From Candidatus Iainarchaeum sp. (GTDB lineage: Archaea > Iainarchaeota > Iainarchaeia > Iainarchaeales > CSSED10-239), in contig JAQVTI010000005.1 in assembly GCA_028700115.1 (NCBI GenBank), positions 1 to 32,000 on the forward strand: DNA of 32,000 nucleotides, given 5' to 3'. Position 1 is the first letter of the stretch, and each line of letters begins with the position of its first letter. The notes below the pieces were generated by a model. That model worked only from the letters and a program-made list of their open reading frames with translations. It was not told the origin of the DNA and searched no databases. Below, piece by piece: positions 3,730 to 24,617 of the stretch. Position numbers and translations under genes: made by a program.

Positions 3730-3763
3730 ATAGATATATTATATATAATCTTTTTAAATAAAA

Positions 3764-8165: not shown

Positions 8166-10751
8166 CTATTCATGGAAAAAATTAATATTTTTTCCAAGAT
8201 ATGCTTTTTCTGGAGAAAGTCCATCATCACCATAAATATACTGTATATACTGTCCATCTGCTGTTTCTACAGATAATTTATCTGTTACAACTAAATCTTT
8301 TAAAGCATTTGAAAGTCTTCTATACAAATATCCAGAAACTTTTGTTGCAACACCTGTATCAATTTCACCTTGTCTTCCACCTATAGAATGTACAAAATAT
8401 TGTTTAGGATCTAACCCATCAAAAAAGTTAGATGTTACAAATCCATAATCCATAAGTGATTTTGTTCCAACAAGATTTGTACTTAAAAATCTATTTGAAA
8501 AACCTGCTTTTGGTCTTCCTGTTCTTACAGTTACAAGCCCCCAAAGTCCAACCATATTTACAATATTTGTAAGTCTTCCTCTAGATCCTCCAACACTTGC
8601 AAGCATAACAGAATGATTATTTGCAATTATTCTTTCATTAAAAATTTCATTAAACTTTAAATCTAAAATTTCATTAGAAACTTCATTTTTAGTTTCCCCA
8701 GCTGCAGAAATCATTTCAAGTTCAAATGTTTCTTCTAAATTTTTTCCAGATATTAATGGTAAAGTTTTATTTTCAAACTTTCTTATAATCCCATTTGTTT
8801 TTGCAACTAATTTTTTAACTTTTTCATCCATACTTTTTCTAAGTTTTTCTGGAGCATTATATTCATCTAAAGCAACAGTAAATCCTTTTTTAGAAAAAGT
8901 ATAAAAAACTAATTTACAAAGCTTATAATAAAATTCAACAAGTTTATCTTCAGGATAATGTCTAGAAATAACATCTATTAAATTTCTATGTTTTGTCATT
9001 TTTTCATCTAAAACTCCTGAAATTAATTTTCCTTTTTCAATTTTTAAAGAACAATCATATTTTTCTATATCTTTTTTTGTTATTTTTCCTTTAAGTTCTT
9101 TCAAAATAGTATATAACTTATTATTATATTCTATAGATAAATCTTTAGGAATAATTTGACTAACAATTAATTTACCAGAATACATTCCTTTTCCTCTATC
9201 TGAAGGAGGAAGTTCTTTTATACCAATTGAATATAACATTTCCATAGCTTCTTTTTTTGTAAAAATAGTATCTTTTTTTGTAAGTAAAAATGACCCAGAA
9301 ATTATGTCTTCTACAGGAGTAATCAATGGATTCCCATCTCTTAAACTAATTATATGTTTTTCAACCATCATTAAATTTTTTATTTCAGCAATAGAAGATT
9401 CACTTTGTGGGGCATGTATTTGCATTTCATCTCCATCAAAATCTGCATTATATGGAGCACATGCAATTGGATTTAATCTAAATGTTTTCCCTGGCAATAT
9501 TTTTACTTTGTGACCCATAATTGAAACTCTATGTAATGTAGGTTGTCTATTAAAAATAACTACATCACCATCTACAAGATTTCTTTTAACAATCATTCCT
9601 TCTTCAAGTGAATCTATAATATCTTTTTTAAATTCAGGAGATACAATTTTTCTTCTTCCATTTTTTGTAATTATATATTTTACCATATCTTTTTCTATAT
9701 ATTCTTTAATTTTTGGGAGATTCCAAAAAGTAATTTTTTCAGGAAAAGTTAATGTTTTTGCAACTTGTTCTGGAACTCCAAGTTCATCAATTGCAATTTC
9801 TGTAGAGGGAGTTATTGTAGATCTAGATGCAGAATTAACTCTTTTTCCAATTAAATTATATCTAAATCGTCCTTTTTTTCCTTGAAGTCTTTGAGCAAGA
9901 GTATTTAATGGTCTTCCAGATCTATGTTTTGCAGGTGGAACTCCTGCTGTATTATTATCAACATAAGTTGTTATATTATATTGTAAAAGATCCCATAAAT
10001 CTTCAACAATAATCTGTGGGGCTCCTGCATTAATATTTTCTAAAAGCCTATTATTTATTCTAACAATATTTAAAATCATATGTGTTAAATCACTTTCTGC
10101 AGTAATCACATTTTCTAAAGAAAGAGAAGGTCTTACAGTTACTGGAGGTACAGGAAGTGCACTTGAAATAAACCATTGTGGCTTTAGCTTATCAGAATAT
10201 CCAAATAAAAATAAATCATTATCTGGAACTTTTATAACCCAATCTAAAATTTCTGAAGCATACATTCTTTCTCCATCAAGATAAAAATTTGTAGGTTTAT
10301 CTAAAAGTAATTTAGGTTTTTCAAAACCACAATGTGGGCATTTTTTAATAGTTTTTATTCTTGTAATTAATTCCTTTACAGTTTTATCTATATCAAAAGA
10401 TTCTTTTAAAAAATCATTAATTTCTTCATCAGAAAGCATTATTCTTCCACAATCTTTACAAGTACATTGTAAAATAGAAAATATTTTTTCAGAAAATTTA
10501 GGGTGAATAACAGGTCTTACAAGTTCAATATGTCCAAAATGCCCAGGACAATCTTTCATAGTATGTCCACAAGTTTTACATCTAAGACCTGGAGAAATAA
10601 CTCCTAAATGAAGATCCATAACTCCTCTTTCAATAGGATATCCATCTTTATCATAAGTATCTGATCTAGATATTTCTACAGAAGACATTTTTCTAATAAT
10701 TTCTGGACTTAATATCCCAAATTCAATTGATTTAATTTTTTTAGTAGTCAT
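8166..10751 (-). CDS. rpoA1: DNA-directed RNA polymerase subunit A'
   Basis: The 861-aa product has the N-terminal zinc ribbon motifs (CKTCGHTMKDCPGHFGHIEL), the catalytic NADFDGDEM motif, and the FNRQPTLHRVSIMGH motif. Confidence 0.97.
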   Translation of the reverse strand: MTTKKIKSIEFGILSPEIIRKMSSVEISRSDTYDKDGYPIERGVMDLHLGVISPGLRCKTCGHTMKDCPGHFGHIELVRPVIHPKFSEKIFSILQCTCKDCGRIMLSDEEINDFLKESFDIDKTVKELITRIKTIKKCPHCGFEKPKLLLDKPTNFYLDGERMYASEILDWVIKVPDNDLFLFGYSDKLKPQWFISSALPVPPVTVRPSLSLENVITAESDLTHMILNIVRINNRLLENINAGAPQIIVEDLWDLLQYNITTYVDNNTAGVPPAKHRSGRPLNTLAQRLQGKKGRFRYNLIGKRVNSASRSTITPSTEIAIDELGVPEQVAKTLTFPEKITFWNLPKIKEYIEKDMVKYIITKNGRRKIVSPEFKKDIIDSLEEGMIVKRNLVDGDVVIFNRQPTLHRVSIMGHKVKILPGKTFRLNPIACAPYNADFDGDEMQIHAPQSESSIAEIKNLMMVEKHIISLRDGNPLITPVEDIISGSFLLTKKDTIFTKKEAMEMLYSIGIKELPPSDRGKGMYSGKLIVSQIIPKDLSIEYNNKLYTILKELKGKITKKDIEKYDCSLKIEKGKLISGVLDEKMTKHRNLIDVISRHYPEDKLVEFYYKLCKLVFYTFSKKGFTVALDEYNAPEKLRKSMDEKVKKLVAKTNGIIRKFENKTLPLISGKNLEETFELEMISAAGETKNEVSNEILDLKFNEIFNERIIANNHSVMLASVGGSRGRLTNIVNMVGLWGLVTVRTGRPKAGFSNRFLSTNLVGTKSLMDYGFVTSNFFDGLDPKQYFVHSIGGRQGEIDTGVATKVSGYLYRRLSNALKDLVVTDKLSVETADGQYIQYIYGDDGLSPEKAYLGKNINFFHE

Positions 10752-10822
10752 AATAAATACCTTTTTTCATATAAATTATATTTTTTTTAAGTTTTTAATT
10801 TAAAAATATTTTAAATAAAAAT

Positions 10823-12640
10823 TTATTCAATTTTATCTCCAATATTTAATTTTGGATAAACTCCTAAAGATTTAAGCTCATCTAAAAGTAATTTAAATCC
10901 ATAATTTATTTTTACTTTAGAAATATTACCACCATCACATATAGGGCAATATCTTCTATTTCTTATTTTATCATCAATTGCTAAAACACCACAATCATCA
11001 CAAACATAAACTTCTAATTCATCAGCATCATCCATCAACTTTTCATGTAAAAGCATAGCAGCACCATGTGAAACTAAAGCATCACCTTCCATTTCACCAA
11101 ATCTTAATCCCCCACCTTTTTCTTTACCTTCAGTAGGTTGTCTTGTAAGAAGTTGTATAGATCCTCCATCTCTTGCTTGAATTTTATTTGTAACTACATG
11201 ATATAATCTTTTAAAAGAAATTGGACCAACAAAAATAGGCATATCTATCTTTTCACCTGTGGTTCCATTATAAAATGTTTCTTTTCCATCTTCTCTAAAA
11301 CCATATTTTTTAAGAAGTTTAAAAATATAATCTTTATCTGCATAATATGCAGTACCATCTATTTCATCACCAAGTAAAGCTCCTGCTTTACCAGCAATTG
11401 TTTCAAAAAGATGACCTAATGTCATTCTTGAAGGAATAGAATGCGGATTCATAATAAAATCTGGTTTAATTCCAGAAGCAGTAAAAGGCATATCTGCTTC
11501 ATCAACAACAGCACCAATAACTCCTTTTTGCCCATGGTGAGATGAAAATTTATCCCCAATTTGAGGAATTAAAGTAGTTCTTACTTTAACTTTTGCAAGT
11601 TTAATTCCCCCAACTGTTTGAGAAACTAAAACTCTATCAATAAAACCATCTAAATGCTTTCTTGCAGTAACAGAAGATTCTCTTCTATCTTCAGAAACAA
11701 TTCCAAAATCAGAAATTTCTTCTACAAATCTTGGTGGAGAACTCATACCTATAATTACTCCTCCATTTGGAACATATGATTCTACATTTGCAAGACCATC
11801 TATTCCTAAAGAAACATATGCTTCTTCTCCTCTATAACCTAAAATATTTTCTGAAGGCACAATAAATTCATCTGCTTGCCCTGAAGGATATCTATTTTCT
11901 TGAGCAGAATAAGATCTATAATAAGATGATCTTCCTAATCCTCTTTCAATCGAACCTTTATTTAAAATCATTGCATCAAGCATATTATATCCTTCAAAAG
12001 GCATAATTGCAACAACACAATTTTGAATCATTGGTCTTTTATCAATTCCAAGCATTTTTTCAGTTCTAGTTGTAACTAATGGTTTTTGAGGATAATATAA
12101 AACATGCATTTCTGTATCAAATCTGTTTTTATAATTTATAGAAGGAAGCCCAACTGCTTGTTTAAAAATTTTAGCACCAAAAATAGCTTTTCCAGCCATA
12201 TTATGATTAATAAAAGGAATCATAGATGAAATTATACTAAAAATTGCAGTCCCTGAAATTTCTAAATGTGTATGATCCGGAGTAATATCTTTTTCATCAA
12301 TTGCAACTAATGCATTTTCTTCTTCTTCTGCATCAAGATATTCAATTATTCCTTTTTCAATTAAATCATTCCAATGTAATTTATTTTCTTTAACTTCTTG
12401 ATAAATTTCTTTTGTAAGTTTAGATTTCCCATTATCTAAAATAATTAAAGGTCTTTGAAGTCTTCCAGAATCTGTACTTAAATAAAGTTCATTTATATCT
12501 TTTATATAAGAAATATTTATTTGGGCATCAATTTCTCCTTTTCGTCTTTTTTTAATAAGATCATTTTTTAATTTTTCAGGATTATTACTAAAACCTATTA
12601 AACTTCCATTTATATAAACTTTACATTTATTTATTGCCAT
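10823..12640 (-). CDS. rpoB1: DNA-directed RNA polymerase subunit B' (C-terminal half of subunit B)
   Basis: The 605-aa product contains GDKFSSHHGQKGV, MNPHSIPSRMTLG, GGLRFGEME and a C-terminal Cys4 zinc motif (CDDCG...CPICDG). Confidence 0.97.
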   Translation of the reverse strand: MAINKCKVYINGSLIGFSNNPEKLKNDLIKKRRKGEIDAQINISYIKDINELYLSTDSGRLQRPLIILDNGKSKLTKEIYQEVKENKLHWNDLIEKGIIEYLDAEEEENALVAIDEKDITPDHTHLEISGTAIFSIISSMIPFINHNMAGKAIFGAKIFKQAVGLPSINYKNRFDTEMHVLYYPQKPLVTTRTEKMLGIDKRPMIQNCVVAIMPFEGYNMLDAMILNKGSIERGLGRSSYYRSYSAQENRYPSGQADEFIVPSENILGYRGEEAYVSLGIDGLANVESYVPNGGVIIGMSSPPRFVEEISDFGIVSEDRRESSVTARKHLDGFIDRVLVSQTVGGIKLAKVKVRTTLIPQIGDKFSSHHGQKGVIGAVVDEADMPFTASGIKPDFIMNPHSIPSRMTLGHLFETIAGKAGALLGDEIDGTAYYADKDYIFKLLKKYGFREDGKETFYNGTTGEKIDMPIFVGPISFKRLYHVVTNKIQARDGGSIQLLTRQPTEGKEKGGGLRFGEMEGDALVSHGAAMLLHEKLMDDADELEVYVCDDCGVLAIDDKIRNRRYCPICDGGNISKVKINYGFKLLLDELKSLGVYPKLNIGDKIE

Positions 12641-12677
12641 AATTATTACACATTTTTTTATTTTTATATATTATATT

Positions 12678-14135
12678 TTAAATATTAATTTCTTCAACAT
12701 CAATATTTTTTAAAACAACTTCATTAGAAACATCTGTAGTTACTCTTGCCATAAGAGATAAATTTTTAGAAAGTCCACAATTTGGCCCATCAGGAGTTTC
12801 TATAGGACAAAGTCTTCCCCAATGAGTTCCATGAACATCTCTTGCTTCATAAAGTTCTCTTTGAGAATCTAATGTAGATTTTACTTTTCTCATATTTGTA
12901 AGTGGAGCAACATAATTTACTCTATCTAAAAAAGCACAAACACCTGTAATTTGACCAATCCAAGTTCCTGTTGAAACAGCAAAATTAATTCTATCTGTAA
13001 TTGCATTAGGTCTAATTACAGTTGTTATATTTAATTTTCTATGTCTTGAAATAGTTCTATCTATTTGAAATTTTAAATCATTTATAAAATGTTTAAAAGA
13101 ATATCTAAATAAATTTTCCATAAGCTTCCCAGAAAGTTCTAATCTTTTATTAGAATAATGATCTTTATCTGCATCTGGTCTTAAATTATATGCTTTTTCT
13201 ATAATTTTTGTAGCCATTGTAATTAAATAATAAGCTTTTGCAGTTCTATCTTTTTTATCTTGACCAATATGAGGAAGTAAAAAAGAATCAATAACTTCTT
13301 GAGCTCTTCTAAGTCTATATGTTTGTGTTTGAGAAGGCGCTACAGCTTTTCCAATTTTATCTAATGCTTCTTGATTAGAAGTACATTCTATTTTATCAAG
13401 ATTTAATAAAATTTCATTTCTAATTATTTTTTCATCAGAAAAAAGTTCTATAATTTTATTTTCTTTTTCAATACCAAGTGCATTAATTAATTCTACTAAT
13501 GCTAATTTTCTTGGAGAAGATGGAAAAGTAACATATAAAAGTCCTTCTGTATTTCTTTCAATTTTAACTTTTCCTTTAAAAGCACCTTTTACAGAAATAA
13601 CTTGTGCTTTTATAACTCCTAAATCAGTCTCCCCAAGTAATATTCTATCTAATGCTAAAACTTCTTGTGTAATTAAAGATTTTTCAGAACCATTTACAAC
13701 AAAATATCCCCCAAAATCCATTGGGTCCTCTCCAAAATCAATAAGATCTTGATTTGAAAGTCCATGTAAATTACAATATTTTGATTTTACAATTATAGGA
13801 ATATCTCCTACATAAACTCTTTTTTCATCAATTTTCACATTTTTTCTAAAAAGTTCAATATCTAAATAAATAGACCCTGCATAAGTCATATTTCTTTGTC
13901 TTGCTTCCATTGGAGTTAATCTAACTCTTGCACTTCTATCTGCTTCATTTATTTCAGGTCTTGTTATTTCTACATTTGATAGTTTTATTAAAACATTATT
14001 ATTACATTCAATTTCAGAATATTCTTGAATAATTTCTGGAATTTTTTCATCAATAAACTGATCAAAAGATTTTATTCTTTGATATATTGGTCCATATTGT
14101 TTATAATAAGATTCAATTAATGCCCATTTGTCCAT
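12678..14135 (-). CDS. rpoB2: DNA-directed RNA polymerase subunit B'' (N-terminal half of subunit B)
   Basis: The 485-aa product contains ...GGYFVVNGSEKSLITQE..., DHYSNKRLELSGKLM and ARDVHGTHWGRLCPIETPDGPNCGLSKNL. It is in a different frame from B' (TAA stop, 37-nt gap), so this is a genuine gene split. Confidence 0.97.
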   Translation of the reverse strand: MDKWALIESYYKQYGPIYQRIKSFDQFIDEKIPEIIQEYSEIECNNNVLIKLSNVEITRPEINEADRSARVRLTPMEARQRNMTYAGSIYLDIELFRKNVKIDEKRVYVGDIPIIVKSKYCNLHGLSNQDLIDFGEDPMDFGGYFVVNGSEKSLITQEVLALDRILLGETDLGVIKAQVISVKGAFKGKVKIERNTEGLLYVTFPSSPRKLALVELINALGIEKENKIIELFSDEKIIRNEILLNLDKIECTSNQEALDKIGKAVAPSQTQTYRLRRAQEVIDSFLLPHIGQDKKDRTAKAYYLITMATKIIEKAYNLRPDADKDHYSNKRLELSGKLMENLFRYSFKHFINDLKFQIDRTISRHRKLNITTVIRPNAITDRINFAVSTGTWIGQITGVCAFLDRVNYVAPLTNMRKVKSTLDSQRELYEARDVHGTHWGRLCPIETPDGPNCGLSKNLSLMARVTTDVSNEVVLKNIDVEEINI

Positions 14136-14140
14136 TTAAA

Positions 14141-14149
14141 ATCACACCT
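14141..14149 (-). promoter_or_regulatory. Shine-Dalgarno-like AGGTGTGAT upstream of rpoB''
   Basis: The minus strand reads tttaAAGGTGTGATtttaaATG, with the motif ending 5 nt before the ATG at 14135. Confidence 0.5.
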
Positions 14150-14189
14150 TTAAAAATATAATTTAAAAAATAATTTAAAATTAATTTAA

Positions 14190-14588
14190 TTAATCTTTAA
14201 CTACTCTTCTATAATATAAAGTTTCCCCAACATTTGAATTTTTTCTTTTAATTTCGATTATATCTCCAACTTTAACTTCTAAATGCCTAATTGCTTTATC
14301 AGAAATAAATATAATAGGCATTCTTTCTGAAGATAAGTCTTTTTCTGAAAGTTTTAAAACTTCTTCTTGATCTAAAATCCTATGCTCTGGGATATAACTA
14401 TGAATAACTTGATCTTTTAATCTTCTTTCTCTTCTATTTTTCTTTTTATATGCTTTTTCTTTTGGTTCTTTTTTTTCTTTTGTTTTTGATTTAGAACTAG
14501 TTATATCTAAGATTTCAACATCTTTAATTTCTTCTTTTGAAAAAACTTTTTTAGATTTTGTTTCTTTTTTTACCAAAATAAACACCAT
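14190..14588 (-). CDS. rpoH: DNA-directed RNA polymerase subunit H (Rpb5 C-terminal-domain homologue) with a ~60-aa Lys-rich N-terminal extension
   Basis: The C-terminal 70 aa (IPEHRILDQEEVLKLSEKDLSSERMPIIFISDKAIRHLEVKVGDIIEIKRKNSNVGETLYYRRVV) match the RpoH pattern. The gene is first in the rpoH-B-A cluster. It starts at an ATG at 14588, and there is no internal Met before the conserved domain. Confidence 0.85.
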   Translation of the reverse strand: MVFILVKKETKSKKVFSKEEIKDVEILDITSSKSKTKEKKEPKEKAYKKKNRRERRLKDQVIHSYIPEHRILDQEEVLKLSEKDLSSERMPIIFISDKAIRHLEVKVGDIIEIKRKNSNVGETLYYRRVVKD

Positions 14589-15068
14589 TTTTATAATTTT
14601 TAATAAATTTCCATAATATAATTTTTAATTAAATTATTATTCAAAAAAACACCTTTGATCTTTAAATAAAGAAAAAAGATAAATGATTAGATTATTATTT
14701 TTATACTCTTTAATATTATTAAAAATAGTTATAAATATACTTTTTTTAAAAAATAGCACAAATAATGCCACAGATAAATAGAAAGATGATAATAAGAGCA
14801 TAAAGTAATATAAGAAACGAAAACTTTATAAACTGTTTGTTGTTTTCCTCTAAAAAATAAAAGAATAATTTAAAAACAAATTTTATTAATTATTATTAAT
14901 TAGATTATAATTTTTAAAAAATATAATTATTATTAAAATGCTATTTTTAATAATATAAATAATGTATATTATATAAATAAATTTTAAAATAATATTTATA
15001 ACAAAAATTATAACAAAATAATTATTAAAAATAAAAATTATTTAATTATAAAATATATAAAAAAATAT

Positions 15069-15136
15069 TTTTAAAAATAAATAAAAAAAAATTTTAAAAA
15101 TAAAGAAAATAATTTTTTTAAAAATAAAGAAAACAA
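15069..15136. repeat. Three degenerate tandem copies of ttttaaaaataaRgaaaaYaa upstream of the KaiC-like gene
   Basis: The copies lie at about 15069-15089, 15092-15112 and 15116-15136 on the plus strand. The last two are identical at 20 of 21 positions. The array ends ~55 bp before the ATG at 15192. This is a low-complexity context, so the significance is uncertain. Confidence 0.45.
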
Positions 15137-15191
15137 TTATAAATATAACTAATAATATATATATAATATAAAAATAATTGAGTTGAAAAAT

Positions 15192-15902
15192 ATGGAACGA
15201 GTACCAACAGGTGTAAAAGGTTTTGATGAACTTATACAAGGAGGAATCCCAAAAGGAGCTTCTGTTTTAGTTTCTGGAGGAGCAGGTTCTGGAAAAACAA
15301 TTTTTGCAACTACATTTATTTATGAAGGTGCAAGAAAATTTGGAGATCCAGGTCTTTTTGTAACAGTTGAAGGAAATTTAAAAAACATTGTATGGAATAT
15401 GGAAAATTTTGGATGGGATATTAAATCTTTAGAACAAAAAAATTTAATGAAAATATATAGAATGCATATTGACCCTAGAAAACCTGTTGAACCACAAATA
15501 GACAAAGAATTAGATATTATTACTTCTATGGTAAAAGATATTGGTGCAACAAGACTAACAATAGATTCAACAACATCTTTTGGGGCATGGATGTCTGATC
15601 AAGGAAAATTAAGAAATTTATTATTTAGATTTGTAGATTCTTTAAAAGATTTAAATTGTACAACTATGCTTACAGCAGAAACAAAAGGTGGAGCAAGAGA
15701 TTTTAGTGCATATGGTGTTGAAGAATTTGTAGTTGATGGAATTTTTGCAATGTATTTTATTCCACCAAATAGATCTATTTTTATAAGAAAATTAAGAGGT
15801 ACAAAACATTCTCAAAGCGTTCATCCTTGTGAAATTACAGAACATGGATTAGATATAAAACCTAAAGATGAAGTTATGTGGAGTGCAATTAAACAATATT
15901 AG
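15192..15902 (+). CDS. Single-domain KaiC-like / RecA-superfamily ATPase
   Basis: The product begins MERVPTGVKGFDELIQGGIPKGASVLVSGGAGSGKTIFATTFIYEG, which includes the Walker A motif. It also contains ATRLTIDSTT (Walker B-like) and ...FIRKLRGTKHSQSVHPCEITEHGLDI, a typical archaeal KaiC-type (COG0467-like) pattern. The track start at 15183 is a TTG, and the ATG is at 15192. This is the only plus-strand gene. Confidence 0.85.
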   Translation: MERVPTGVKGFDELIQGGIPKGASVLVSGGAGSGKTIFATTFIYEGARKFGDPGLFVTVEGNLKNIVWNMENFGWDIKSLEQKNLMKIYRMHIDPRKPVEPQIDKELDIITSMVKDIGATRLTIDSTTSFGAWMSDQGKLRNLLFRFVDSLKDLNCTTMLTAETKGGARDFSAYGVEEFVVDGIFAMYFIPPNRSIFIRKLRGTKHSQSVHPCEITEHGLDIKPKDEVMWSAIKQY

Positions 15903-15973
15903 ATTTTTTTAAAATTTTCTAAAAAAATCTTTTTTTTTATTTTATAATTTATTTAAATAATTATATTAAAAAA

Positions 15974-17722
15974 CTAATTATTTTGTAAATCAAAAATACG
16001 ATTTATCTCTTCTGAAGTTGTTGTTTGAAAACAAGTCTTATCAGTTCTAAATTTAATAAACCTTGGAAATCTTAAAGCAAGACCAGTTTTTTTAATATTA
16101 CTATAACAACAAGTATGTAAATTACTAAAAGTAATATCATCAAAATTAATTTCAACAATTATTTTTGGCAAAACATAATAATCTGGTTCTATATTTGTAC
16201 ATATATTTATAGGCTTATAAGAAAGTTTATCTTTTTCAAAAATATTACAAAGATATTTAAGAATATCATCACTAAGTCCAGATCCAAGTTTTGCGATAGT
16301 TTTATATTTTTCATCAAAAGAATCATAAATACCCATTAATAATGCCCCAACTTTATTTTCAGATCTTTTTCCTTGTCCTAAAAATACTCCTAATATAACC
16401 GCATCTATTGTATCTAAAGAATTATTATAATAAGATTTTTTAAATTTAATCCAATTAAAACCACGAGAACCAGCTTTATATGAAGAATCTAAATCTTTTG
16501 CAATTATACCTTCAAATCCATTTTCAATTCTATTATTAAAAAAATCTTCTAATTCTTTCACATTTTTTGTAATAATTATTTCTGTGGGTTTAATAATTTC
16601 AGAAATATTAAAATATTTTTCAATAATTTTTCTTCTTTCTAAATTTGATAAAGAAAAAGTTTCTTTATCTTTAAAATAAATAATATCAAAAACCTTTAAA
16701 TGTAAAGGAAGTTTTTTAGATTTTTCAAAAATATCATATTTTCTTTTTCTTTGCATAGTTATTTGAAAAGGTAAATATCTATTATTAATATAATCATATG
16801 CAATTGCTTCACAATCAATTATAAAATCAAAATTAATTTTTTTAATTTCTTCAACAATATCTGGAAACATATTACTCATTTCTTCTTGATTTCTTGAAAA
16901 AATTTTAATTACTTGCCCAAATTTATGAATTTGTTGCCTAAAACCATCAATTTTAGAATCAACTATAAATTCTTTATTTTCAGGTCCAGAAAGCCTTTTT
17001 ACAATTTCTGAAAAATTCTTTGCTCTTTCACAAAGTGCAGACTTAAAGGGCACAAATTTTTCTAAAGATAAATTTTCTAAAAATAAAATTCCTTTTTCTT
17101 TAATAATTTTAGATAAATATCCAAGATCTGAAATTATCTCATATTTTATAGAAATTATTTCTCTAGATTTTTTTTGATCTATAGAATCATCTAAAAAAGA
17201 AAGTGCATCAATTATTGTAGAATCCCCAAAACCAAGTCTAAAAGAAATAGGAAATCTTATAATATATTTTGCTGAAATTTTATCTAGGTTAAAAAGAATT
17301 GATTCAAAAATTTGTAATTTTTTAAAAATCGCATTTTTTCCATCAATATTAGATATCTTTTCTAAAGCTAAATAAACATCTAAAAATTCAAGTTCTTTTG
17401 AAAAAAGAGTTTTTTGAAAAACTTTAGATTCTAAAGAAGTAATAACAATTCCTAAATCTCCTTTTTTATTAAGTTCTTTTTTCACAGCAACAGTTGTTTG
17501 TCCAAGATATTTTGCAATTAAATTAATTAATGTTTTTGGACCTATATTTATTTCTTTTCCTTTATAAATAGGACCAATTGTCCCTTGTAAAAAATAAACT
17601 AATTTAGAAAGTTCTTCAGAATTAACTTTTAAAAAAATTTCTTTTAAAATACTTGCAATTTCTAATCTTGAAGAAGTTTTTTCAATTTTTTCAAAATATA
17701 AACAAATCTCTTTAAATTTCAT
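15974..17722 (-). CDS. lig: ATP-dependent DNA ligase
   Basis: The 582-aa product has the adenylation motif I (VDSKIDGFRQQIHK), followed by FIIDCEAIAYD, EGIIAKDLDSSYKAGSRGFNWIKFK and ALRFPRFIKFRTDK (motif VI). Confidence 0.95.
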   Translation of the reverse strand: MKFKEICLYFEKIEKTSSRLEIASILKEIFLKVNSEELSKLVYFLQGTIGPIYKGKEINIGPKTLINLIAKYLGQTTVAVKKELNKKGDLGIVITSLESKVFQKTLFSKELEFLDVYLALEKISNIDGKNAIFKKLQIFESILFNLDKISAKYIIRFPISFRLGFGDSTIIDALSFLDDSIDQKKSREIISIKYEIISDLGYLSKIIKEKGILFLENLSLEKFVPFKSALCERAKNFSEIVKRLSGPENKEFIVDSKIDGFRQQIHKFGQVIKIFSRNQEEMSNMFPDIVEEIKKINFDFIIDCEAIAYDYINNRYLPFQITMQRKRKYDIFEKSKKLPLHLKVFDIIYFKDKETFSLSNLERRKIIEKYFNISEIIKPTEIIITKNVKELEDFFNNRIENGFEGIIAKDLDSSYKAGSRGFNWIKFKKSYYNNSLDTIDAVILGVFLGQGKRSENKVGALLMGIYDSFDEKYKTIAKLGSGLSDDILKYLCNIFEKDKLSYKPINICTNIEPDYYVLPKIIVEINFDDITFSNLHTCCYSNIKKTGLALRFPRFIKFRTDKTCFQTTTSEEINRIFDLQNN

Positions 17723-17798
17723 AAAAATATAATAATAGAAAAAGCTTAAAAAACAAATGAATATAAAAAATAAAGATAAATATATATGTAATCAAAAA

Positions 17799-19262
17799 CT
17801 AATATGATTTTCCTATATATACAATACAATTTGCCTTTTTACCACAAACAACACAAGTATCATTTTCATCAGGATTTTCATCAAAATCCATTCTAATTCC
17901 TCTAATATCTGCTCCTTTTGTATCAAATTTAATTTTATCTGCACATTCTTTTCCATCTTCTATTGAGCAAAATGGAACTCTAATTATTTTATTTTCTTTA
18001 TCTAAAATTTCTAAAAGATCATTATAATTATCAACAGTTACAATTTTTTCAGAAAATTCTAAATCTGCTTGCTTTTTTAAATTATTTGTAAATTCTAATG
18101 AAATTTTTTTAATTTCATCATAAATATCTGCAATATAAATCTTAATTTTTTCATTAAAATCTCTTCTAAAAACAGTTATTGTCCCTTGAAAAATATCTTT
18201 TGGTCCAATTTCTATTCTTAAAGGAACTCCTTTCATTTCATAATATGAGAATCTTTCTTTTGGGGTTTTTTCTTTATCATCATCAATTTTTACTCTATAT
18301 CCAATTTTATCTAAATTTTCTGCAATATCTAAACACATTTCTTCAATTTTTTGATTATCTGCATCACTAAAATATAATGGTAAAATAATTATTTGTATAG
18401 GTGCAAGCTCAAAAGGGAGTCTCAAACCATTACAATCTCCATGAACACCAATCATACCACCATAAATTCTAGAAATTGCAGGACCATAACATGTCCCAAA
18501 TGCAAATTTTTCTTTTTCATCTCTATCTTTAAATTTAACATTAAATGTTTCTGTAAATTTTGTTCCTAAAAGATGAGTTGAAGGAAGTTGTAAAATTTTA
18601 CCATTTGGTAAAATAACATCTGCTGCATAAGTATTTATTGCACCAGGAAATTTATCCCATTGTGGTCTTTTAAAAAAAATAAATGGTATTCCAAAAGTAT
18701 CATGAAGCATTTCTTCAGTAATTTGCATATCTTCTAAAACTTGTTCTTCTGCATCTTCTAAAGTTTCAAAAATATTATGAGATTCATACCAATAAAATTC
18801 TCTACCTCTTATAAATGGTTTAGTTGCTTTTGATTCATATCTGAAAACATTTGCTCTTTGATAAGTTTTTAATGGTAAATCTTTATAACTTTTAAGCCAA
18901 TAACTAAACATATAATAAAATGCAGTTTCAGAAGTTGGTCTTAAAGCATATTTATTTTCAAAATTTTCATTACCATGTTGTGTAACCCAAAAAACTTCTG
19001 GAGAAAAACCTTCTACATGTTCTGATTCTTTTAAAAAATTTTCTTCAGGTATTAATGTTGGAAGAATTAATTGTTGATGTCCTGTTTCATTAAATTTATC
19101 TTCATAAACTCTAAACATATAGCTAATTGAAAAAACAGACCATGGTCTAAAAACTACTAATCCTTTAATATTATATCTTATATCTGCAAGTTCTGCTTTA
19201 TAGATAATATCATTAAACCATTCATTAAAGTCTTCTATTTTATATTTTTCTTCACTAACCAT
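17799..19262 (-). CDS. proS: Prolyl-tRNA synthetase (archaeal/eukaryotic type)
   Basis: The product contains ...GLVVFRPWS..., LRPTSETAFYYMF, the class II motifs FRYESKATKPFIRGREFYWYESH and TCYGPAISRIYGGMIGVHGD, and a C-terminal Cys motif ending ...IGKSY. The track start (19271) is a GTG inside a TGTGA SD-like motif. The ATG is at 19262 (MVSEEKYK). Confidence 0.95.
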   Translation of the reverse strand: MVSEEKYKIEDFNEWFNDIIYKAELADIRYNIKGLVVFRPWSVFSISYMFRVYEDKFNETGHQQLILPTLIPEENFLKESEHVEGFSPEVFWVTQHGNENFENKYALRPTSETAFYYMFSYWLKSYKDLPLKTYQRANVFRYESKATKPFIRGREFYWYESHNIFETLEDAEEQVLEDMQITEEMLHDTFGIPFIFFKRPQWDKFPGAINTYAADVILPNGKILQLPSTHLLGTKFTETFNVKFKDRDEKEKFAFGTCYGPAISRIYGGMIGVHGDCNGLRLPFELAPIQIIILPLYFSDADNQKIEEMCLDIAENLDKIGYRVKIDDDKEKTPKERFSYYEMKGVPLRIEIGPKDIFQGTITVFRRDFNEKIKIYIADIYDEIKKISLEFTNNLKKQADLEFSEKIVTVDNYNDLLEILDKENKIIRVPFCSIEDGKECADKIKFDTKGADIRGIRMDFDENPDENDTCVVCGKKANCIVYIGKSY

Positions 19263-19459
19263 ATATTTCACATATTTTAATTTAATATTTTTTAGGATTT
19301 ATTTAGATTTATTAGAAAATATATATTTTTAAATAAATAATTTAAAAAATTATTAAATATTAAAATAAATCTAAATTAATATATAAACTAATTTTAAATA
19401 TATATATAGTTTATATATATTATATAAATATATAAAACACAATTTAAATATATCTAAAT

Positions 19460-20323
19460 TTATTTTATATAATATTCTCTTAAAACATCATTTAAAACTT
19501 TAGTTCTAGCAAAAATATCTTTTAAATTATTAGAAACTAATATATTTAATTCTTTTCTTTCATTTTTCATTTTTTTTAAATTTATATTAAAATTATTTAT
19601 ATTATTATTAATTTCTTCAATTTTAGAATTTAATTCTGAAATAATTCTATATTTTATTTTTTGTTGATATTTGTTTTCTTCACTAGAAATTGAATCAAGA
19701 GATCTAGAAAAATAATATTCTTTTTTTGCTTCTTCTTTTAATTTTATTTTTTTAAGATTTTGTTGATTTATAAATTCAGTGATATTTTTTTTATTAAAAT
19801 GATTAATATATTCTATATGTTTATATAATTTATTAAGATTAGAACTATTTTCTAAATATAATTTTAAATTTAAATTAAACATTTTTAAAATTATTTTTTC
19901 ACTAGTATTCAATTTACCTGATTTTGAAAAATAACCATATATTTCTTTAAAGAAAGAATATACCTCTGTATTAGATTTGAAAATTGAATTGCTTTCTGGA
20001 ATTTTAGGCAAAGACGAAAATTTATATTTATCTTTAATATATTTTAAAAAATCTAGTGAATTTTTTGAATTATAATTAAATAATTCTAAATTATGAATAG
20101 ATGCATTTCTAAGATCTGCTTTATAATAATTTCCAAATCTAGATTCTTTTACATTTAAATAGTTATAAAAATTTATATTCTTATATTCTTCAAATTTATT
20201 TTTAAAAAAAGAAATTTTTGGTTTTAAATATTCAGAAGTTTTTTTAAACCTAATTTTTAATTGATTCTTATTTTTTTCAGAGTTAGATTTTTTATTATTT
20301 TTATTTGAATTATTTTTAATCAT
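19460..20323 (-). CDS. Hypothetical Asn/Lys-rich protein (287 aa)
   Basis: This is a long ORF with no recognisable family. The first 23 codons of the track ORF (up to 20392) overlap the tRNA-Pro gene and read through its GC-rich sequence, so I start the gene at the ATG at 20323 (MIKNNSNKNNKK...). The C-terminal third looks coiled-coil-like. Confidence 0.55.
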   Translation of the reverse strand: MIKNNSNKNNKKSNSEKNKNQLKIRFKKTSEYLKPKISFFKNKFEEYKNINFYNYLNVKESRFGNYYKADLRNASIHNLELFNYNSKNSLDFLKYIKDKYKFSSLPKIPESNSIFKSNTEVYSFFKEIYGYFSKSGKLNTSEKIILKMFNLNLKLYLENSSNLNKLYKHIEYINHFNKKNITEFINQQNLKKIKLKEEAKKEYYFSRSLDSISSEENKYQQKIKYRIISELNSKIEEINNNINNFNINLKKMKNERKELNILVSNNLKDIFARTKVLNDVLREYYIK

Positions 20324-20352
20324 AAAAATCAAATTATTAAAGATAATATAAA

Positions 20353-20427
20353 TGGGACCACCCCGATTTGAACGGGGGTCGAAAGCTCCCAAAGCTCACA
20401 TGCTAGACCAGGCTACACCATGGCCCC
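20353..20427 (-). tRNA. tRNA-Pro (anticodon UGG), 75 nt, no encoded CCA
   Basis: This is the only GC-rich island in the region. The minus strand folds as a cloverleaf: GGGGCCA TG GTGT AGCCTGGTCTA GCAT G TGAGC TTTGGGA GCTTT CGAC CCCCG TTCAAAT CGGGG TGGTCCC A. The acceptor stem has 7 bp (one G-U). The T-arm is 5 bp with a canonical TTCAAAT loop. The anticodon loop is T-T-TGG-G-A. Confidence 0.9.
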
Positions 20428-20593
20428 TTTTAAGATTTATATTATATTTTTAAAATATGATATATATCTATATAATATAGAAACAATATGTTTATAAATA
20501 AATTTTTTTAAAAAAAATAATGTTTTAGAAATAAATCCTAATAAAATATGATTTTTTACAATAAATTATATTTATATCTATATTAAATATATT

Positions 20594-21706
20594 TTATTTA
20601 TTCCAAAGATCCCAATATTTATTAAAATAATTAATATACTCTTTTGTAATATTTTCGTCATAAATAAAAATTATACTTTCATCATTATTTGAAATTCCAT
20701 TATTAGACAAATTCATAGAACCAGTCATAACAAAAGAATTATCAAAAATACAAAATTTATTATGCATACTTTCTGGATTTTTATCTTTTATTGTAAATAT
20801 ATTTTTATCAATTAATCTATCAAATTCTGAATAATTATCAATAGTTCTACTTTCTAAAATAAACCTTGAAGGAATTTCCTTAGAAGAAATAATATCTGTA
20901 ACTTCATCAATTGTAAAACTAAAAAACATACAATCAATAGAATTAGCAACTTCTAATTTTTCTAAAAAATGAGAATAACAATCTTCTTCTGGACAAAAAT
21001 AGGTTTCTATATTCCCAAATTGATTTATATAATAATTATTTTTTAGATCTAAACTAAAATTACCATCAAAAAAAGAATCTATTTTTTTCTTAAAAAACAA
21101 TGCTAATTCTTTATCTTCTAAAATTAAAATATTATTATTATTTTTATATACCCCATTTAATGTAAAATTCATAGAACCAATAAATATTTTTTTATTATCA
21201 AAAACACAAAATTTATTATGCATATAAGAAGAACTAGATGGATTAGATATTACAAAAATATTATTTGCTTTTAAATCCCCAATTTTAGAAGTTTTTGTAG
21301 AAGATCTTAAATAATCAGTCACAATTCTTACTTCTAAACCTTCTTTTTTTTTATCAATTAAAGAAGATGAAACTGCATCTAAACTAATATCATAAATCGC
21401 ACAATCAATACTTTCTTTTGAAGAATTAATTAAATTAATTAATTCAACTTCACAATTATCTTCTGGACAAAAATAAACTTCGCTATCAATTATTCTATCT
21501 TTAGACCCATAAACAATTTTATTTTTTAAATCCCCATAAATAATAGATGGTTTTTCTTTAATATTATTAATATCTATATTTATTAAATAATCTGAATTTA
21601 AATCAACTTTAGATAAATCTGTATTTTCTTCTCCAAAAAAAGAAATAATAATTAATAAAACTACAAAAAGTATTAAAATCCAAGTAATTATTTTCCCAAA
21701 ATTCAT
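20594..21706 (-). CDS. Phospholipase D / Nuc-like superfamily protein with two HKD motifs and an N-terminal membrane anchor
   Basis: Two HxK(x4)D-type motifs are present: HNKFCVFDNKKIFIGSMNFT and HNKFCIFDNSFVMTGSMNLS. Each is preceded by a similar YFCPE(D/E)(N/D)C...SIDC segment, indicating an internal duplication. The N-terminus IITWILILFVVLLIIISFF is a hydrophobic helix. Confidence 0.85.
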   Translation of the reverse strand: MNFGKIITWILILFVVLLIIISFFGEENTDLSKVDLNSDYLINIDINNIKEKPSIIYGDLKNKIVYGSKDRIIDSEVYFCPEDNCEVELINLINSSKESIDCAIYDISLDAVSSSLIDKKKEGLEVRIVTDYLRSSTKTSKIGDLKANNIFVISNPSSSSYMHNKFCVFDNKKIFIGSMNFTLNGVYKNNNNILILEDKELALFFKKKIDSFFDGNFSLDLKNNYYINQFGNIETYFCPEEDCYSHFLEKLEVANSIDCMFFSFTIDEVTDIISSKEIPSRFILESRTIDNYSEFDRLIDKNIFTIKDKNPESMHNKFCIFDNSFVMTGSMNLSNNGISNNDESIIFIYDENITKEYINYFNKYWDLWNK

Positions 21707-21787
21707 AATTTATCACATAAATATATTATTTTTTAAATAAAAATTTTATAAATAAAAAATTTAAAAAAAAAGAGCTAATTAGAAAAA

Positions 21788-24472
21788 TTAAATAAATTTT
21801 CCACAAAAAAGATCTTTTCCCCCACCTTTTATTTTTTTAGAAACTTTATTTTCTAAATCTGAAATAATTTCAGAAATTTCAATTTGTGATTTAGGTCCTT
21901 TCCATATAAATACATTTAAATTATTATTATATATTGCAATAGTCTTATCTTGTGATTTAGAAATATCCTTTAATTTTTTAAAAATTTTTAAAATTTCTGA
22001 ACTATCTAAATTAAATTTTGCAATTATTTTTTTATCTAAAGTAGAAATTATACTTTTTGTTTCATAATCTGCAATTTTATGTTCTAATTTTTCAATATTT
22101 TTTCTTTGTTCTTTCCACTCTTTAAAAAACACATTAACTGTTTTAAATAATTCTACAGAAGAAACTGACAAAATTTCACTAGTTTTATCTAAAATATTTT
22201 CTTTTTCTCTAATATATCTTAAAGCAGATTTATATGTTGTAAAAATAATCCTGACAACACCATCTTGAACTGAATTTCTTTTAATAATCTTAAAAACACC
22301 AACTTTAGATGTATTATTTAAATGAAGACCAGCACAAGCTTGAACATCAATACCTAAAATTTCAATAATTCTAAGAGAATTCCCTGGAATTGCACCACCT
22401 TGATATAATCTAAATCCATATTTTTTTTCAGCTAGATCTTTATCTAATGTAAAAATATTTATATCAATTGAATCAAATATCCAATTATTAACTAATTCTT
22501 CAATTTGTATAATTTCACTATCTGTGATAGCTTTATAATGAGTAATATCTAAATGTGCTTGGTTTATATCTTTATAAGCCCCAGCTTGCCAAATATGATT
22601 TCCTAAAATTTGTTTACAAGCTGCATTTAATAAATGAGTCCCAGTATGTTGAGATCTAAGTTGCCTTTGTCTATCTACATCTACTAAAAGAACTACTGCT
22701 TGTCCAACATTTAATGTTTTTTGAAAATTATCTAAAATATGTAAAATCTTACCTTCAAAATTATAAACTTCTAAAACATCAAAAGACCCATTAATAGTCC
22801 CTTTATCAAAAGACTGCCCTCCTCCTTCTGGATAAAAAACAGTTTGATCTAAAATAACCAAATTTTTAGATGCATATATGATTTTTGAAACACATTCTGT
22901 TTTATCTTCATAATATATTTTTTTTGTATTTGAAAGCATTTTAATAATTTCTACATTTTCTTTTTCTAAAAGTTTTTCAATTTTATTATTTTCTTTTATT
23001 TTTTCAGTTTCATTACTTTGAGATATTAATTCAAAATAATTAGATGGTATTTTAATTTCTTTTTTTAATTTTAAAGAAGTTTGAATTATTTGTTCTTTAG
23101 TTATTCCATCACTTTTATAAAACATAACCATATCTTTTAAAGAAATATCTTTTCCTGAAGAAAAAAATAATTCTAATTTTTGTTTTGCTTTTATTTGATT
23201 TTCTAAATATTTTTTTCGTTCTTCTTCTAAAATATCACATGCTGATTTATATCCTTTAATAATTGTAGGATCAAATTCTTTTAAAGAATCTATATGAATT
23301 TTAAAAATCTGATTTAAATCTAAATCAAAAGAATATTTTCTTTGCATATCAAATATCCTTCTAGCTAAAATTCTAAGATTATATCCCCCTCCAGAATTAC
23401 TTGGTAAAAGTCCATCTGTACAAGTATATAAAAGTGTTTTAGTATGATCTGCAATTGCATATAATGCAAAAATAGGATCTAAAATTTCAAATAATTCTTT
23501 TTTTGAATATCCTAAATTTTCTGCAATTTTTTCTTGTTCTTTTTCTAAATTTTTTACTTCATCTATATTTAATTTAGATGAATCTTTATAAAAAGCTAAA
23601 AGTAATTTTTTATCAAAATTAATTTTTGTTTTCTTTTTTAAATAATCTAATACTTCTTTAAAAGTAATATCATAACTAGTAGGAGTTCCATTTGTATACC
23701 AAACAAGTCTTTCATAACCTGCACCCATATCTATAACAGGTCTTTCTAATTTTTTATGAGTTCCATTTTTTAAATCTTGAAACTCCATAAAAACACAGTT
23801 TCCTAATTCCACTCCATTTGCAAAATATTCCATTGAAGGCCCAAAATAACCTCCACCTTCCCAAACATCTTCTTTAAAGATTAAGTCTTTTTCTTTAACT
23901 CCAATAACTTTAGTTAAATATTCAAAATCAAGACTAATTGCTTCTTCTTTAAAATATGGTTTTTTTGGATCTGTATTAAATGCATGTTGCCCAAACATAA
24001 CAAATGTTGTATAATGTGTTCCAGTAACTCCTACATTTGAAACATCTCCAAATCAAATAGAAGTCTGTGGGACAATTAAAGGATCTGCTGGAGGTTTAAC
24101 TTCTCCATTTACAACATATGGTTGAAAATCTATAATTGAGGCATTTGTAAAATACAAATCACTTCTCCATCTAGGTATAACTGGATATCTTGGAATTGAA
24201 GTATGTCCATTTTTTTCAAAGAACTTTTCTATTTTTTTCCAACATTCAGTATAACTATATTCTTTTGTTTTTTTACCTAAAAAAGAAACACCCATACAAG
24301 AAGAATCAGAACAAATTTCTTTAGAAGAATCAAGTGTCCAAAATGGATCTCCACAATTTTTACAAATTTTTCTTTCATATCCTAATTTAGTAAGAGCCTT
24401 AACTTGATAATGTTCCTTCCAGTTTTTTTCAAACATAGGTCTAACTTGCTTTTTAAGTAAAGTTTCTGCCAT
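21788..24472 (-). CDS. alaS: Alanyl-tRNA synthetase, one reading frame interrupted by a single in-frame TGA (codon 140)
   Basis: Track ORFs 24053..24481 and 21788..23998 are in the same frame. Conserved AlaRS sequence (FGDVSNVGVTGTHYTTFV) continues through the 54 nt between them. The downstream part carries the editing motifs HTGTHLL and CAGLH and the C-terminal GGGK motif. The ATG is at 24472 (MAETLLKK). The track start at 24481 is a GTG. Confidence 0.85.
24053..24055 (-). other. In-frame TGA within alaS, at the position of the conserved active-site Arg
   Basis: The minus strand reads GTC CCA CAG ACT TCT ATT TGA TTT GGA GAT GTT TCA AAT GTA GGA, which translates as V P Q T S I * F G D V S N V G. 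By my recall of the family, this aligns to Q-x-[CS]-[IV]-R-...-D-[IL]-x-N-V-G. Confidence 0.8.
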
Positions 24473-24617
24473 AATTTCCACATTTATAAATATATAAATA
24501 TATTTTAAAATATATAATATATATAAAGAAGTATTTGTTTTTAAACTTTATTAATTTATAAAAAAATAAAAATAAATATAAAAATAGAAATATTAAAAAA
24601 TATAAATTTTAAAAAAA

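What the first reader, a model, noticed from the sequence alone, without database searches (positions are those of the whole stretch)
23999..24055. Essential alaS interrupted by a single in-frame TGA exactly at the invariant active-site arginine
Track ORFs 24053..24481 and 21788..23998 are the two parts of one archaeal-type AlaRS, and they share a frame (54 nt between them). Across the junction the minus strand reads V P Q T S I [TGA] F G D V S N V G V T G T H Y T T F V M F G Q H A F N.

The 18 codons after the TGA precede the first ATG of the downstream ORF yet are still AlaRS core sequence. From my memory of the family pattern this is Q-x-[CS]-[IV]-R ... D-[IL]-x-N-V-G-x-T-x-R-H-x-T-F-F-E-M. 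So this is not a clean two-gene split of the kind reported for Nanoarchaeum alaS. The TGA falls where the family has the catalytic Arg of the class II core (Arg69 in E. coli numbering, from memory).

The other ~890 codons are intact, including the editing-site motifs HTGTHLL and CAGLH and the C-terminal GGG motif. In DNA this AT-rich, that argues against an old pseudogene. AGA (the prevailing Arg codon here) to TGA is one substitution.

The possible explanations are:
- an assembly or sequencing error, or a minor population allele
- a very recent nonsense mutation
- translational read-through (near-cognate decoding of UGA by Arg, Trp or Cys tRNAs is documented in other systems)
- a non-standard meaning of TGA in this lineage

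One caveat: adjacent conserved positions also deviate (Thr for the Arg of R-H, Val for the Glu of F-E-M). Rapid divergence and incipient decay therefore cannot be separated from sequence alone.
Basis: partly seen in the sequence, partly recalled or inferred. Interest (0 to 1): 0.75.

Follow-up and report, generated by a model that had tools for sequence, protein, structure and literature searches.

The report
One-base stop codon discrepancy in alaS
The stop codon inside this archaeon's essential alanyl-tRNA synthetase gene is a single A-to-T difference, and a 99.98%-identical public assembly of the same organism has a normal arginine codon and an intact gene there, so it is an assembly error or transient variant and not a new genetic code.

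Summary
The alaS gene (minus strand, 24472..21788) has one in-frame TGA at 24055..24053. That column is Arg in 119 of 119 homologues.

The exotic readings are not supported. A public MAG contig of the same population (GCA_028691725.1, JAQUYT010000016.1) matches the window over 10,263 bp with two mismatches and no gaps. One mismatch is this base. That contig reads AGA (Arg) and encodes an intact 894-aa AlaRS. Two further contigs of the same population are 100% identical to the window over 11,061 bp and 3,036 bp.

Apart from this base, the window's alaS is identical to the intact allele, so there is no decay.

No other in-frame TGA occurs in about 9,800 window codons, or at any conserved position in about 86,000 clade codons. 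TGA is a genuine stop in relatives. No tRNA(UCA) or SECIS-like element was found.

About 5.7% of all possible single-base changes in this AT-rich window would create a stop codon. The most likely cause is a consensus or assembly error, or a non-fixed nonsense variant. Only read mapping can tell these apart. Interest is low.

The parts
21788..24472 (-). alaS, an archaeal-type alanyl-tRNA synthetase of 894 codons plus a TAA stop. It is complete apart from one in-frame TGA.
   Evidence: Translation. Pfam tRNA-synt_2c at 273.8 bits plus tRNA_SAD. Full-length relatives at 63-83% identity. The start and end match the intact gene call in L137, 10379-13063.
24053..24055 (-). In-frame TGA at the invariant motif-2 Arg codon. 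The variant base is 24055 (T on the coding strand, A on the + strand).
   Evidence: The column is Arg in 119/119 homologues. Five relatives have AGA or AGG. The same-strain contig L137 has AGA, differing only at this base.
23999..24052 (-). Eighteen sense codons of AlaRS core (FGDVSNVGVTGTHYTTFV) between the TGA and the first downstream ATG. No in-frame ATG, GTG or TTG lies among them.
   Evidence: The sequence is conserved in all clade relatives, so a two-gene split would lose core residues.
21745..21745 (.). The only other difference between the window and L137. It is intergenic (A in the window versus G in L137 on the minus strand) and lies 8 bases from the end of the L137 contig.
24618..25931 (-). 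hisS (HisRS, 437 aa). Its exact sequence was the key that retrieved the same-strain contig L137.
26148..26417 (-). HU-family DNA-binding protein (89 aa). Its exact sequence also retrieved L137.
20594..21706 (-). PLD-like protein (370 aa). Its exact sequence retrieved Logan contig L138, which is 100% identical to window 20382..23417.

Best explanation
The window carries a normal, essential, single-copy-type archaeal alaS from a DPANN archaeon labelled 'Candidatus ainarchaeum sp.' (Iainarchaeota, Forterrea-like clade). In this particular assembly, one base (24055) reads T instead of A on the coding strand. That turns the AGA codon of the invariant motif-2 arginine into TGA. The organism's functional allele is AGA, as found in a near-identical public MAG of the same population. 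The TGA is therefore either a consensus or assembly base error, or a non-fixed nonsense variant that the assembler happened to follow. I put the error at roughly 0.55 and the variant at roughly 0.35. No special decoding mechanism is involved. Shown here: the base difference, the intact sister allele, the lack of any other lesion, and the lack of any other sense TGA. Inferred: that the TGA allele is not the majority functional state of the population.
For: (1) L137 (GCA_028691725.1, JAQUYT010000016.1) aligns to window 32000..21738 over 10,263 bp with 2 mismatches and 0 gaps. One mismatch is 24055, where L137 reads ATT AGA TTT and encodes an intact 894-aa AlaRS, MDD3178245.1. (2) L139, from the same MAG, is 100% identical to window 8817..19877. 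L138 (Logan SRR22315503) is 100% identical to window 20382..23417. So 22.7 kb is cross-checked with only 2 differences, which means the same clonal population. (3) The truncated 139-, 142- and 736-aa products are not on record in any assembly or protein collection. (4) There is no other in-frame TGA in 9,810 window codons, while TGG is used 60 times. (5) Across 154 long ORFs and 86,042 codons from the window plus 20 clade loci, the alaS TGA is the only TGA aligned to a real residue (R in 16/16 hits). TGA is the true stop of rpoB'' in 8 of those loci. (6) 5.7% of all possible single-base substitutions in the window create an in-frame stop, so a random base error doing this is unremarkable. (7) No SECIS or other RNA family was found in 19000-27000 apart from tRNA-Pro. 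The only tRNA in the window is Pro(TGG).
Against: No reads were available, so an error cannot be separated from a genuine allele. The other roughly 20 genes in the window show no frameshift or stop, so the assembly is generally accurate and a base error has low prior probability per site. NCBI's annotation of a second MAG contig (54,401 bp, PHN22 locus tags), which shares identical HU, PLD and ligase proteins and is probably the window's source, has only a 273-aa C-terminal AlaRS fragment as a protein. That is consistent with the TGA really being in that deposited assembly. None of about 23 genes of this strain ends in TGA. The clade base rate of TGA stops is only about 6%, so this is weak evidence (P about 0.25).
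Confidence: 0.9

Rival explanations
1. This is a genuine, very recent nonsense mutation that dominates the sampled population. On this reading alaS is a nascent pseudogene, and the cell is dying or depends on another source of Ala-tRNA.
For: The TGA is in a deposited-quality contig with no other obvious errors. NCBI annotation of the probable source contig lacks an intact AlaRS. A neighbouring gene (Methyltransf_33) is frameshifted in relative L001 and deleted here, so gene loss does occur in this clade.
Against: AlaRS is essential, and loss of the motif-2 Arg together with truncation at residue 139 would be lethal. A sister assembly, identical elsewhere, has AGA. There is no second lesion in 2,685 nt. 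All 119 homologues, including every clade relative, keep an intact single gene.
Confidence: 0.05
2. The TGA is real and tolerated because UGA is leaky in this organism. A near-cognate tRNA-Arg (first-position mismatch) inserts Arg at some frequency and restores wild-type AlaRS.
For: UGA is the leakiest stop codon, and Arg is one of the amino acids inserted at UGA by near-cognate decoding in yeast (my own knowledge, not tested here). The codon sits exactly at an Arg column. No gene of this strain is seen to end in TGA.
Against: No stimulatory element or RNA family was found. The same strain has AGA in another assembly. Low-level read-through of an essential synthetase would be strongly deleterious. 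There is no other example in 86,000 clade codons.
Confidence: 0.03
3. TGA has changed meaning in this species, for example by codon capture to Arg. AGA and TGA would then be a synonymous polymorphism.
For: There are 0 TGA stops in about 23 genes of this strain and 0 of 15 in the closest relative L001. Both have unusually high TAG use (15 of 35 stops), against 8/65 TAG and 4/65 TGA in more distant relatives. The single sense TGA falls on an Arg column.
Against: There is only one instance in 9,810 codons, against 319 AGA. No tRNA(UCA) lies in the window. Relatives at about 69% AlaRS identity use TGA as a true stop. Zero TGA stops out of 38 is not significant at a 6% base rate. No UGA reassignment in DPANN archaea surfaced in the one literature search run, which returned only work on CPR bacteria.
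Confidence: 0.01
4. This is a deliberately split two-gene AlaRS, as reported for Nanoarchaeum equitans, or a selenocysteine codon.
For: Two ORFs lie in one frame.
Against: Eighteen conserved core codons lie between the TGA and the first possible start, and none of them is ATG, GTG or TTG. The catalytic Arg itself would be missing. All relatives have one gene. The column is Arg, never Cys or Sec. No SECIS-like hit was found.
Confidence: 0.005

Closest known systems
Internal-stop 'pseudogenes' in metagenome-assembled genomes caused by consensus errors or strain-level variants
   Same: A single base substitution relative to an otherwise identical assembly of the same population. An essential gene is hit, there is no second lesion, and the gene caller splits the gene or drops it.
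   Different: Nothing distinguishes this case, apart from the coincidence that the hit codon encodes the invariant motif-2 arginine.
Archaeal-type class II alanyl-tRNA synthetase (for example the P. horikoshii 2zze and A. fulgidus 2ztg/3wqy structure sequences)
   Same: Same domain order (catalytic core, tRNA recognition, editing domain with HxxxH/CxxxH, C-terminal GGG). E-values of 6.6e-71 to 5.8e-69 to the three archaeal structure sequences over the N-terminal 290 aa.
   Different: The clade has G-T-H instead of G-R-H and F-V-M instead of F-E-M after motif 2. This is lineage-typical and not decay.
UGA reassignment in reduced, AT-rich genomes (code 4 Mycoplasma UGA=Trp; code 25 Gracilibacteria/SR1 UGA=Gly)
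   Same: An AT-rich, reduced, probably symbiotic genome, with no TGA gene ends seen in the small sample available.
   Different: Those codes show many sense TGAs per gene at Trp or Gly columns. Here there is one TGA in about 9,800 codons, at an Arg column, it is absent from the sister assembly, and TGA terminates genes in relatives.
Split alaS of Nanoarchaeum equitans
   Same: An AlaRS in a DPANN archaeon appears as two ORFs.
   Different: Here the ORFs are in frame and separated by a single stop inside the catalytic core, with no start codon for the second piece. This is not a clean domain-boundary split. The comparison rests on my own knowledge of N. equitans and was not tested here.

Membership tests
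Archaeal-type AlaRS (class II) | Pfam tRNA-synt_2c core above the gathering score, plus the tRNA_SAD editing-domain module | tested here: met
   273.8 bits (cut-off 30.3) over residues 83-600, continuous across the TGA. tRNA_SAD scores 48.8 bits.
Archaeal-type AlaRS (class II) | Invariant motif-2 arginine (Q-x-[CS]-[ILV]-R) | tested here: not met
   The window has TGA at this codon. Homologues have Arg in 119/119. The same-strain contig L137 has AGA, so the feature is met in the sister allele.
Archaeal-type AlaRS (class II) | Editing-site HxxxH and CxxxH motifs and the C-terminal GGG motif | tested here: met
   HTGTHLL, CAGLH and KGGGK are present in the translation.
Lineage with UGA reassigned to a sense codon | Recurrent in-frame TGA at conserved columns in many genes | tested here: not met
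   There is 1 TGA in 9,810 window codons. It is the only TGA aligned to a residue in 154 long ORFs and 86,042 codons across the clade.
Lineage with UGA reassigned to a sense codon | TGA not used to end genes | tested here: inconclusive
   0 of about 23 genes in this strain and 0 of 15 in L001 end in TGA. The clade base rate is only about 6%, and relatives end rpoB'' with TGA.
Lineage with UGA reassigned to a sense codon | The sense TGA is stable in near-identical genomes | tested here: not met
   The 99.98%-identical contig L137 has AGA.
Lineage with UGA reassigned to a sense codon | A tRNA with a UCA anticodon and an altered release factor | not testable with these tools
   Only tRNA-Pro(TGG) lies in the window. 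aRF1 and the rest of the genome are not available.
Selenocysteine recoding | A SECIS element, and a Cys/Sec column in homologues | tested here: not met
   No Rfam hit at E<=1 in 19000-27000 other than tRNA. The column is Arg in 119/119.
Split-gene AlaRS (N. equitans type) | Two independently initiated ORFs that together contain all core residues | tested here: not met
   Eighteen core codons plus the Arg lie outside any initiable ORF, with no in-frame ATG, GTG or TTG.
Decaying pseudogene | Additional lesions, or substitutions at conserved sites | tested here: not met
   The gene is identical to the intact allele at 2,684 of 2,685 nt. The 'deviant' residues are clade-typical.

The most novel reading that the evidence does not exclude
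In this one ainarchaeum species, UGA has stopped acting as an efficient stop codon. It can be decoded as arginine, either by near-cognate tRNA-Arg or through an early codon-capture stage. AGA and TGA at the catalytic Arg of AlaRS would then be a tolerated polymorphism between two otherwise identical populations. The absence of TGA gene ends and the TAG-rich stop usage in this strain and its closest relative do not exclude this reading.
Probability: 0.03. Interest if true: 0.85.

Novelty: not a real feature. Interest (0 to 1): 0.07.

Why it matters
If the TGA were a stable, decoded codon, it would be the first UGA-to-Arg reading and the first stop-codon reassignment in DPANN archaea. The evidence points the other way. 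The same organism, assembled independently, has a plain AGA and an intact gene. The practical lesson is about method. An in-frame stop in an essential gene of a MAG should first be checked against sister assemblies and reads. Exact-protein look-ups of neighbouring genes are a quick way to find those sister assemblies. The case also shows that residues deviating from a family pattern recalled from memory can be normal for the clade.

Tried and rejected
1. Stop-codon census as evidence for recoding. The window has 0 TGA gene ends (13 TAA, 7 TAG). Relatives show that TGA stops are rare anyway (about 6%), so this was rejected as decisive evidence.

2. Scans of GTDB genomes and JGI metagenomes with AlaRS.

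3. The first Codetta-like all-ORF comparison was swamped by antisense frames of conserved genes. It was redone with ORFs of at least 250 codons.

4. Exact look-ups of the truncated products of 736, 139 and 142 aa found nothing on record.

5. An Rfam scan for SECIS or recoding elements found only tRNA-Pro.

6. Mapping to E. coli/A. aeolicus Arg69 with phmmer placed the 3-residue archaeal/bacterial indel before the motif rather than after it. The equivalence therefore rests on the Q-x-C/S-[ILV]-R motif and my own knowledge.

7. A literature search for AlaRS Arg69 returned a GlyRS Arg69, which is not relevant.

8. A literature search for UGA recoding in DPANN returned only CPR bacteria.

9. Split-gene, +1 frameshift and reinitiation readings were rejected from the sequence. 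Homology continues in frame 0, and there is no in-frame start codon.

Full report
OBSERVATION. On the minus strand the window encodes an archaeal-type alanyl-tRNA synthetase from 24472 to 21788. This is 894 sense positions plus a TAA stop. A single TGA at 24055..24053 interrupts it...V P Q T S I * F G D V S N V G V T G T H Y T T F V M F G Q H A F N.... Mechanical ORF listing gives two same-frame ORFs, 24053..24481 and 21788..23998. Between the TGA and the first ATG lie 18 sense codons, and none of them is ATG, GTG or TTG. Pfam's AlaRS core model aligns as one continuous stretch (residues 83-600, 273.8 bits) across the stop, followed by tRNA_SAD.

IS IT THE INVARIANT ARG? A search of 5.8 billion protein clusters returned full-length (about 890 aa) AlaRS relatives at 83% identity and below, named Candidatus ainarchaeum / Diapherotrites / Iainarchaeum. 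In an alignment of the 120 best hits, the TGA column is Arg in 119 of 119 sequences that cover it. The archaeal AlaRS crystal-structure sequences 2zze, 2ztg and 3wqy also have Arg there, in Q-P-[SC]-I-R. Equivalence to bacterial Arg69 is very likely from the shared Q-x-C-[LV]-R motif. phmmer put the indel on the other side, so I treat that numbering as knowledge-based and not shown here.

CONTEXT. The window is about 22% GC and archaeal. Its genes, in window order along the + strand, are:
- a protein of at least 1,246 aa with a PPDK_N domain (it runs off the window's left end);
- a methyltransferase;
- ribosomal proteins S7, S12 and L30e/L7Ae;
- rpoA'' and rpoA';
- rpoB' and rpoB'';
- rpoH;
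- a KaiC-like ATPase (the only gene on the + strand);
- ATP-dependent DNA ligase and ProRS;
- tRNA-Pro;
- a PLD-like protein, alaS, hisS and HU;
- an 1,804-aa protein with no Pfam match.
Gene order is conserved in relatives L001-L009. The clade includes the complete genome of Ca. Forterrea multitransposorum (69% AlaRS identity).

IS TGA SPECIAL IN THIS GENOME? None of the roughly 20 real genes in the window ends in TGA (13 TAA, 7 TAG). alaS holds the only in-frame TGA in 9,810 coding codons, and TGG occurs 60 times. That excludes a Mycoplasma-type code. The missing TGA stops looked suggestive at first. However, relatives L005, L007 and L009 (about 68% AlaRS identity) end rpoB'' with TGA, and TGA makes up only about 6% of stops in the clade. 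Zero out of about 20 is therefore expected roughly a quarter of the time. I then ran a homology-based check on the window plus 20 clade loci, covering 154 ORFs of at least 250 codons (86,042 codons). The alaS TGA was the only TGA aligned to a real amino acid (R in 16 of 16 spanning hits). All other spanned TGAs were the rpoB'' stop or lay upstream of start codons. Relatives encode the Arg with AGA (L001, L002, L007) or AGG (L005, L009), so TGA is one A-to-T change from AGA. No RNA family other than tRNA-Pro was detected around the gene at E<=1.

THE DECISIVE COMPARISON. Scans of GTDB genomes and JGI metagenomes found no same-species contig. Exact-sequence look-ups of neighbouring proteins did.
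- The window's HU and HisRS proteins occur on NCBI MAG contig JAQUYT010000016.1 (GCA_028691725.1, 13,113 bp; L137). It aligns to window 32000..21738 over 10,263 bp with 2 mismatches and no gaps.
- The first mismatch is window base 24055. L137 reads TCT ATT AGA TTT and encodes an intact 894-aa AlaRS (MDD3178245.1), identical to the window's protein except for R at the stop.
- The second mismatch (21745) is intergenic and lies 8 bases from the end of the L137 contig.
- A second contig of that MAG (L139) is 100% identical to window 8817..19877.
- A Logan contig from run SRR22315503 (L138) is 100% identical to window 20382..23417 but ends 636 bp short of the codon.
In total, 22.7 kb of the window is cross-checked by other assemblies of the same clonal population. 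The only internal difference is the base that creates the stop.

The truncated products of 139, 142 and 736 aa are not recorded in any assembly or protein collection. The exact-sequence look-up also showed a second NCBI MAG with a 54,401-bp contig (PHN22 locus tags) carrying identical HU, PLD and ligase proteins. Between PLD and HU its only AlaRS-like protein is a 273-aa 'hypothetical protein' equal to the C-terminus of this AlaRS. I infer, without DNA proof, that this contig is the window's source, and that its annotators also could not call an intact alaS.

INTERPRETATION. The organism's alaS is a normal gene with AGA at the motif-2 arginine. The TGA is a one-base peculiarity of this assembly. 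The two assemblies are otherwise identical, and a truncation at residue 139 that also removes the catalytic Arg would be lethal. A fixed natural allele is therefore very unlikely. A random base error is not improbable as a source: 5.7% of all possible single-base substitutions in this AT-rich window create an in-frame stop, and AGA-to-TGA accounts for 5.8% of those. First-stage readers also select for exactly such anomalies. What I cannot separate without reads is a pure consensus error from a real minority nonsense variant that the assembler followed. I give these together 0.9.

Rivals, with my confidence in each:
- A real dominant nonsense allele or nascent pseudogene: 0.05.
- Tolerated read-through with near-cognate Arg insertion: 0.03.
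- Species-level reassignment of TGA: 0.01.
- A split gene or selenocysteine: below 0.01.
The last two are contradicted directly by the sequence and the alignments.

RESIDUAL ODDITY. The window's strain and its closest relative L001 together show 15 TAG, 20 TAA and 0 TGA gene ends. Relatives L002, L005, L007 and L009 show 8 TAG and 4 TGA among 65. This TAG enrichment in a 22-25% GC genome is unexplained. It is the only observation that keeps the exotic reading alive at a few per cent.

COMPARISON WITH KNOWN SYSTEMS. The gene is a member of archaeal-type AlaRS by every tested feature except the Arg codon itself, which the sister allele restores. It does not meet the tested criteria for a UGA-reassigned lineage, for Sec recoding, for an N. 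equitans-type split alaS, or for a decaying pseudogene (see the membership table). The single literature search run found UGA reassignment only in CPR bacteria and none in DPANN archaea.

VERDICT. The biological interpretation is downgraded to a single-base assembly-level discrepancy or transient variant. It is not a real recoding feature, and interest is low.

Noticed in passing
window gene ends overall; L001: Stop-codon usage in this strain and its closest relative is unusually TAG-rich for a 22-25% GC genome. Together they have 15 TAG, 20 TAA and 0 TGA gene ends. Relatives L002, L005, L007 and L009 have 8 TAG and 4 TGA among 65. The TAG excess looks significant, but the lack of TGA does not.
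   Followed up: partly
L005:21805-21834, L007:21220-21249, L009:21664-21693 (also L010, L056, L062, L083, L087); window 12630-12690: In eight clade loci, rpoB'' ends in TGA and rpoB' starts 6 nt later in the same frame (conserved ...TTG TGA ARA nTT ATG...). Read-through would therefore give a fused RpoB. In the window and in L001 the junction is not in frame (window: TAA stop and a 37-nt spacer; L001: a 34-nt spacer).
   Followed up: partly
window 24482-24617; L001:8754-9906: Relatives carry a 312-aa Methyltransf_33 gene between hisS and alaS. It is absent from the window, where only about 140 bp separates the two genes. In L001 it is split across two reading frames (tblastn residues 3-186 in frame 3 and 170-310 in frame 2), which means a frameshifted pseudogene or an assembly error.
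   Followed up: partly
window 21788-22609 (approximately the C-terminal 273 codons of alaS): NCBI lists a 273-aa 'hypothetical protein PHN22_02230' (MDD3975962.1) on a 54,401-bp contig. It equals the C-terminus of this AlaRS but starts with M where the gene has Ile. It looks like an annotation by-product of the disrupted gene on the probable source contig.
   Followed up: partly
window 26148-26417 (-): A bacterial-type HU DNA-binding protein (PF00216, E=2e-29) occurs in this archaeon. It is conserved at the same position in all clade relatives.
   Followed up: no
window 26566-31980 (-) and 1-3738 (-): There are two very large ORFs. One is an 1,804-aa protein (1,836 aa in L137) with no Pfam match. 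It sits next to proteins of more than 2,100 aa in relatives that have a faint CarboxypepD_reg hit. The other is a protein of at least 1,246 aa whose N-terminus is a PPDK_N (pyruvate phosphate dikinase/PEP-utilising) domain. The remaining roughly 900 aa have no match.
   Followed up: no
window 20353-20427 (-) versus ORF 19460-20392 (-): The mechanical 310-aa ORF (TTG start, no Pfam hit) overlaps tRNA-Pro(TGG) by 40 nt, so its true start is probably further downstream. This stretch (19878-20381) is also the one part of the mid-window not covered by any sister contig.
   Followed up: no
window 21745: This is the second and only other difference from the sister MAG contig (A here, G there, on the minus strand). 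It is intergenic and lies 8 nt from the end of that contig, so it is probably a contig-end error in L137.
   Followed up: yes
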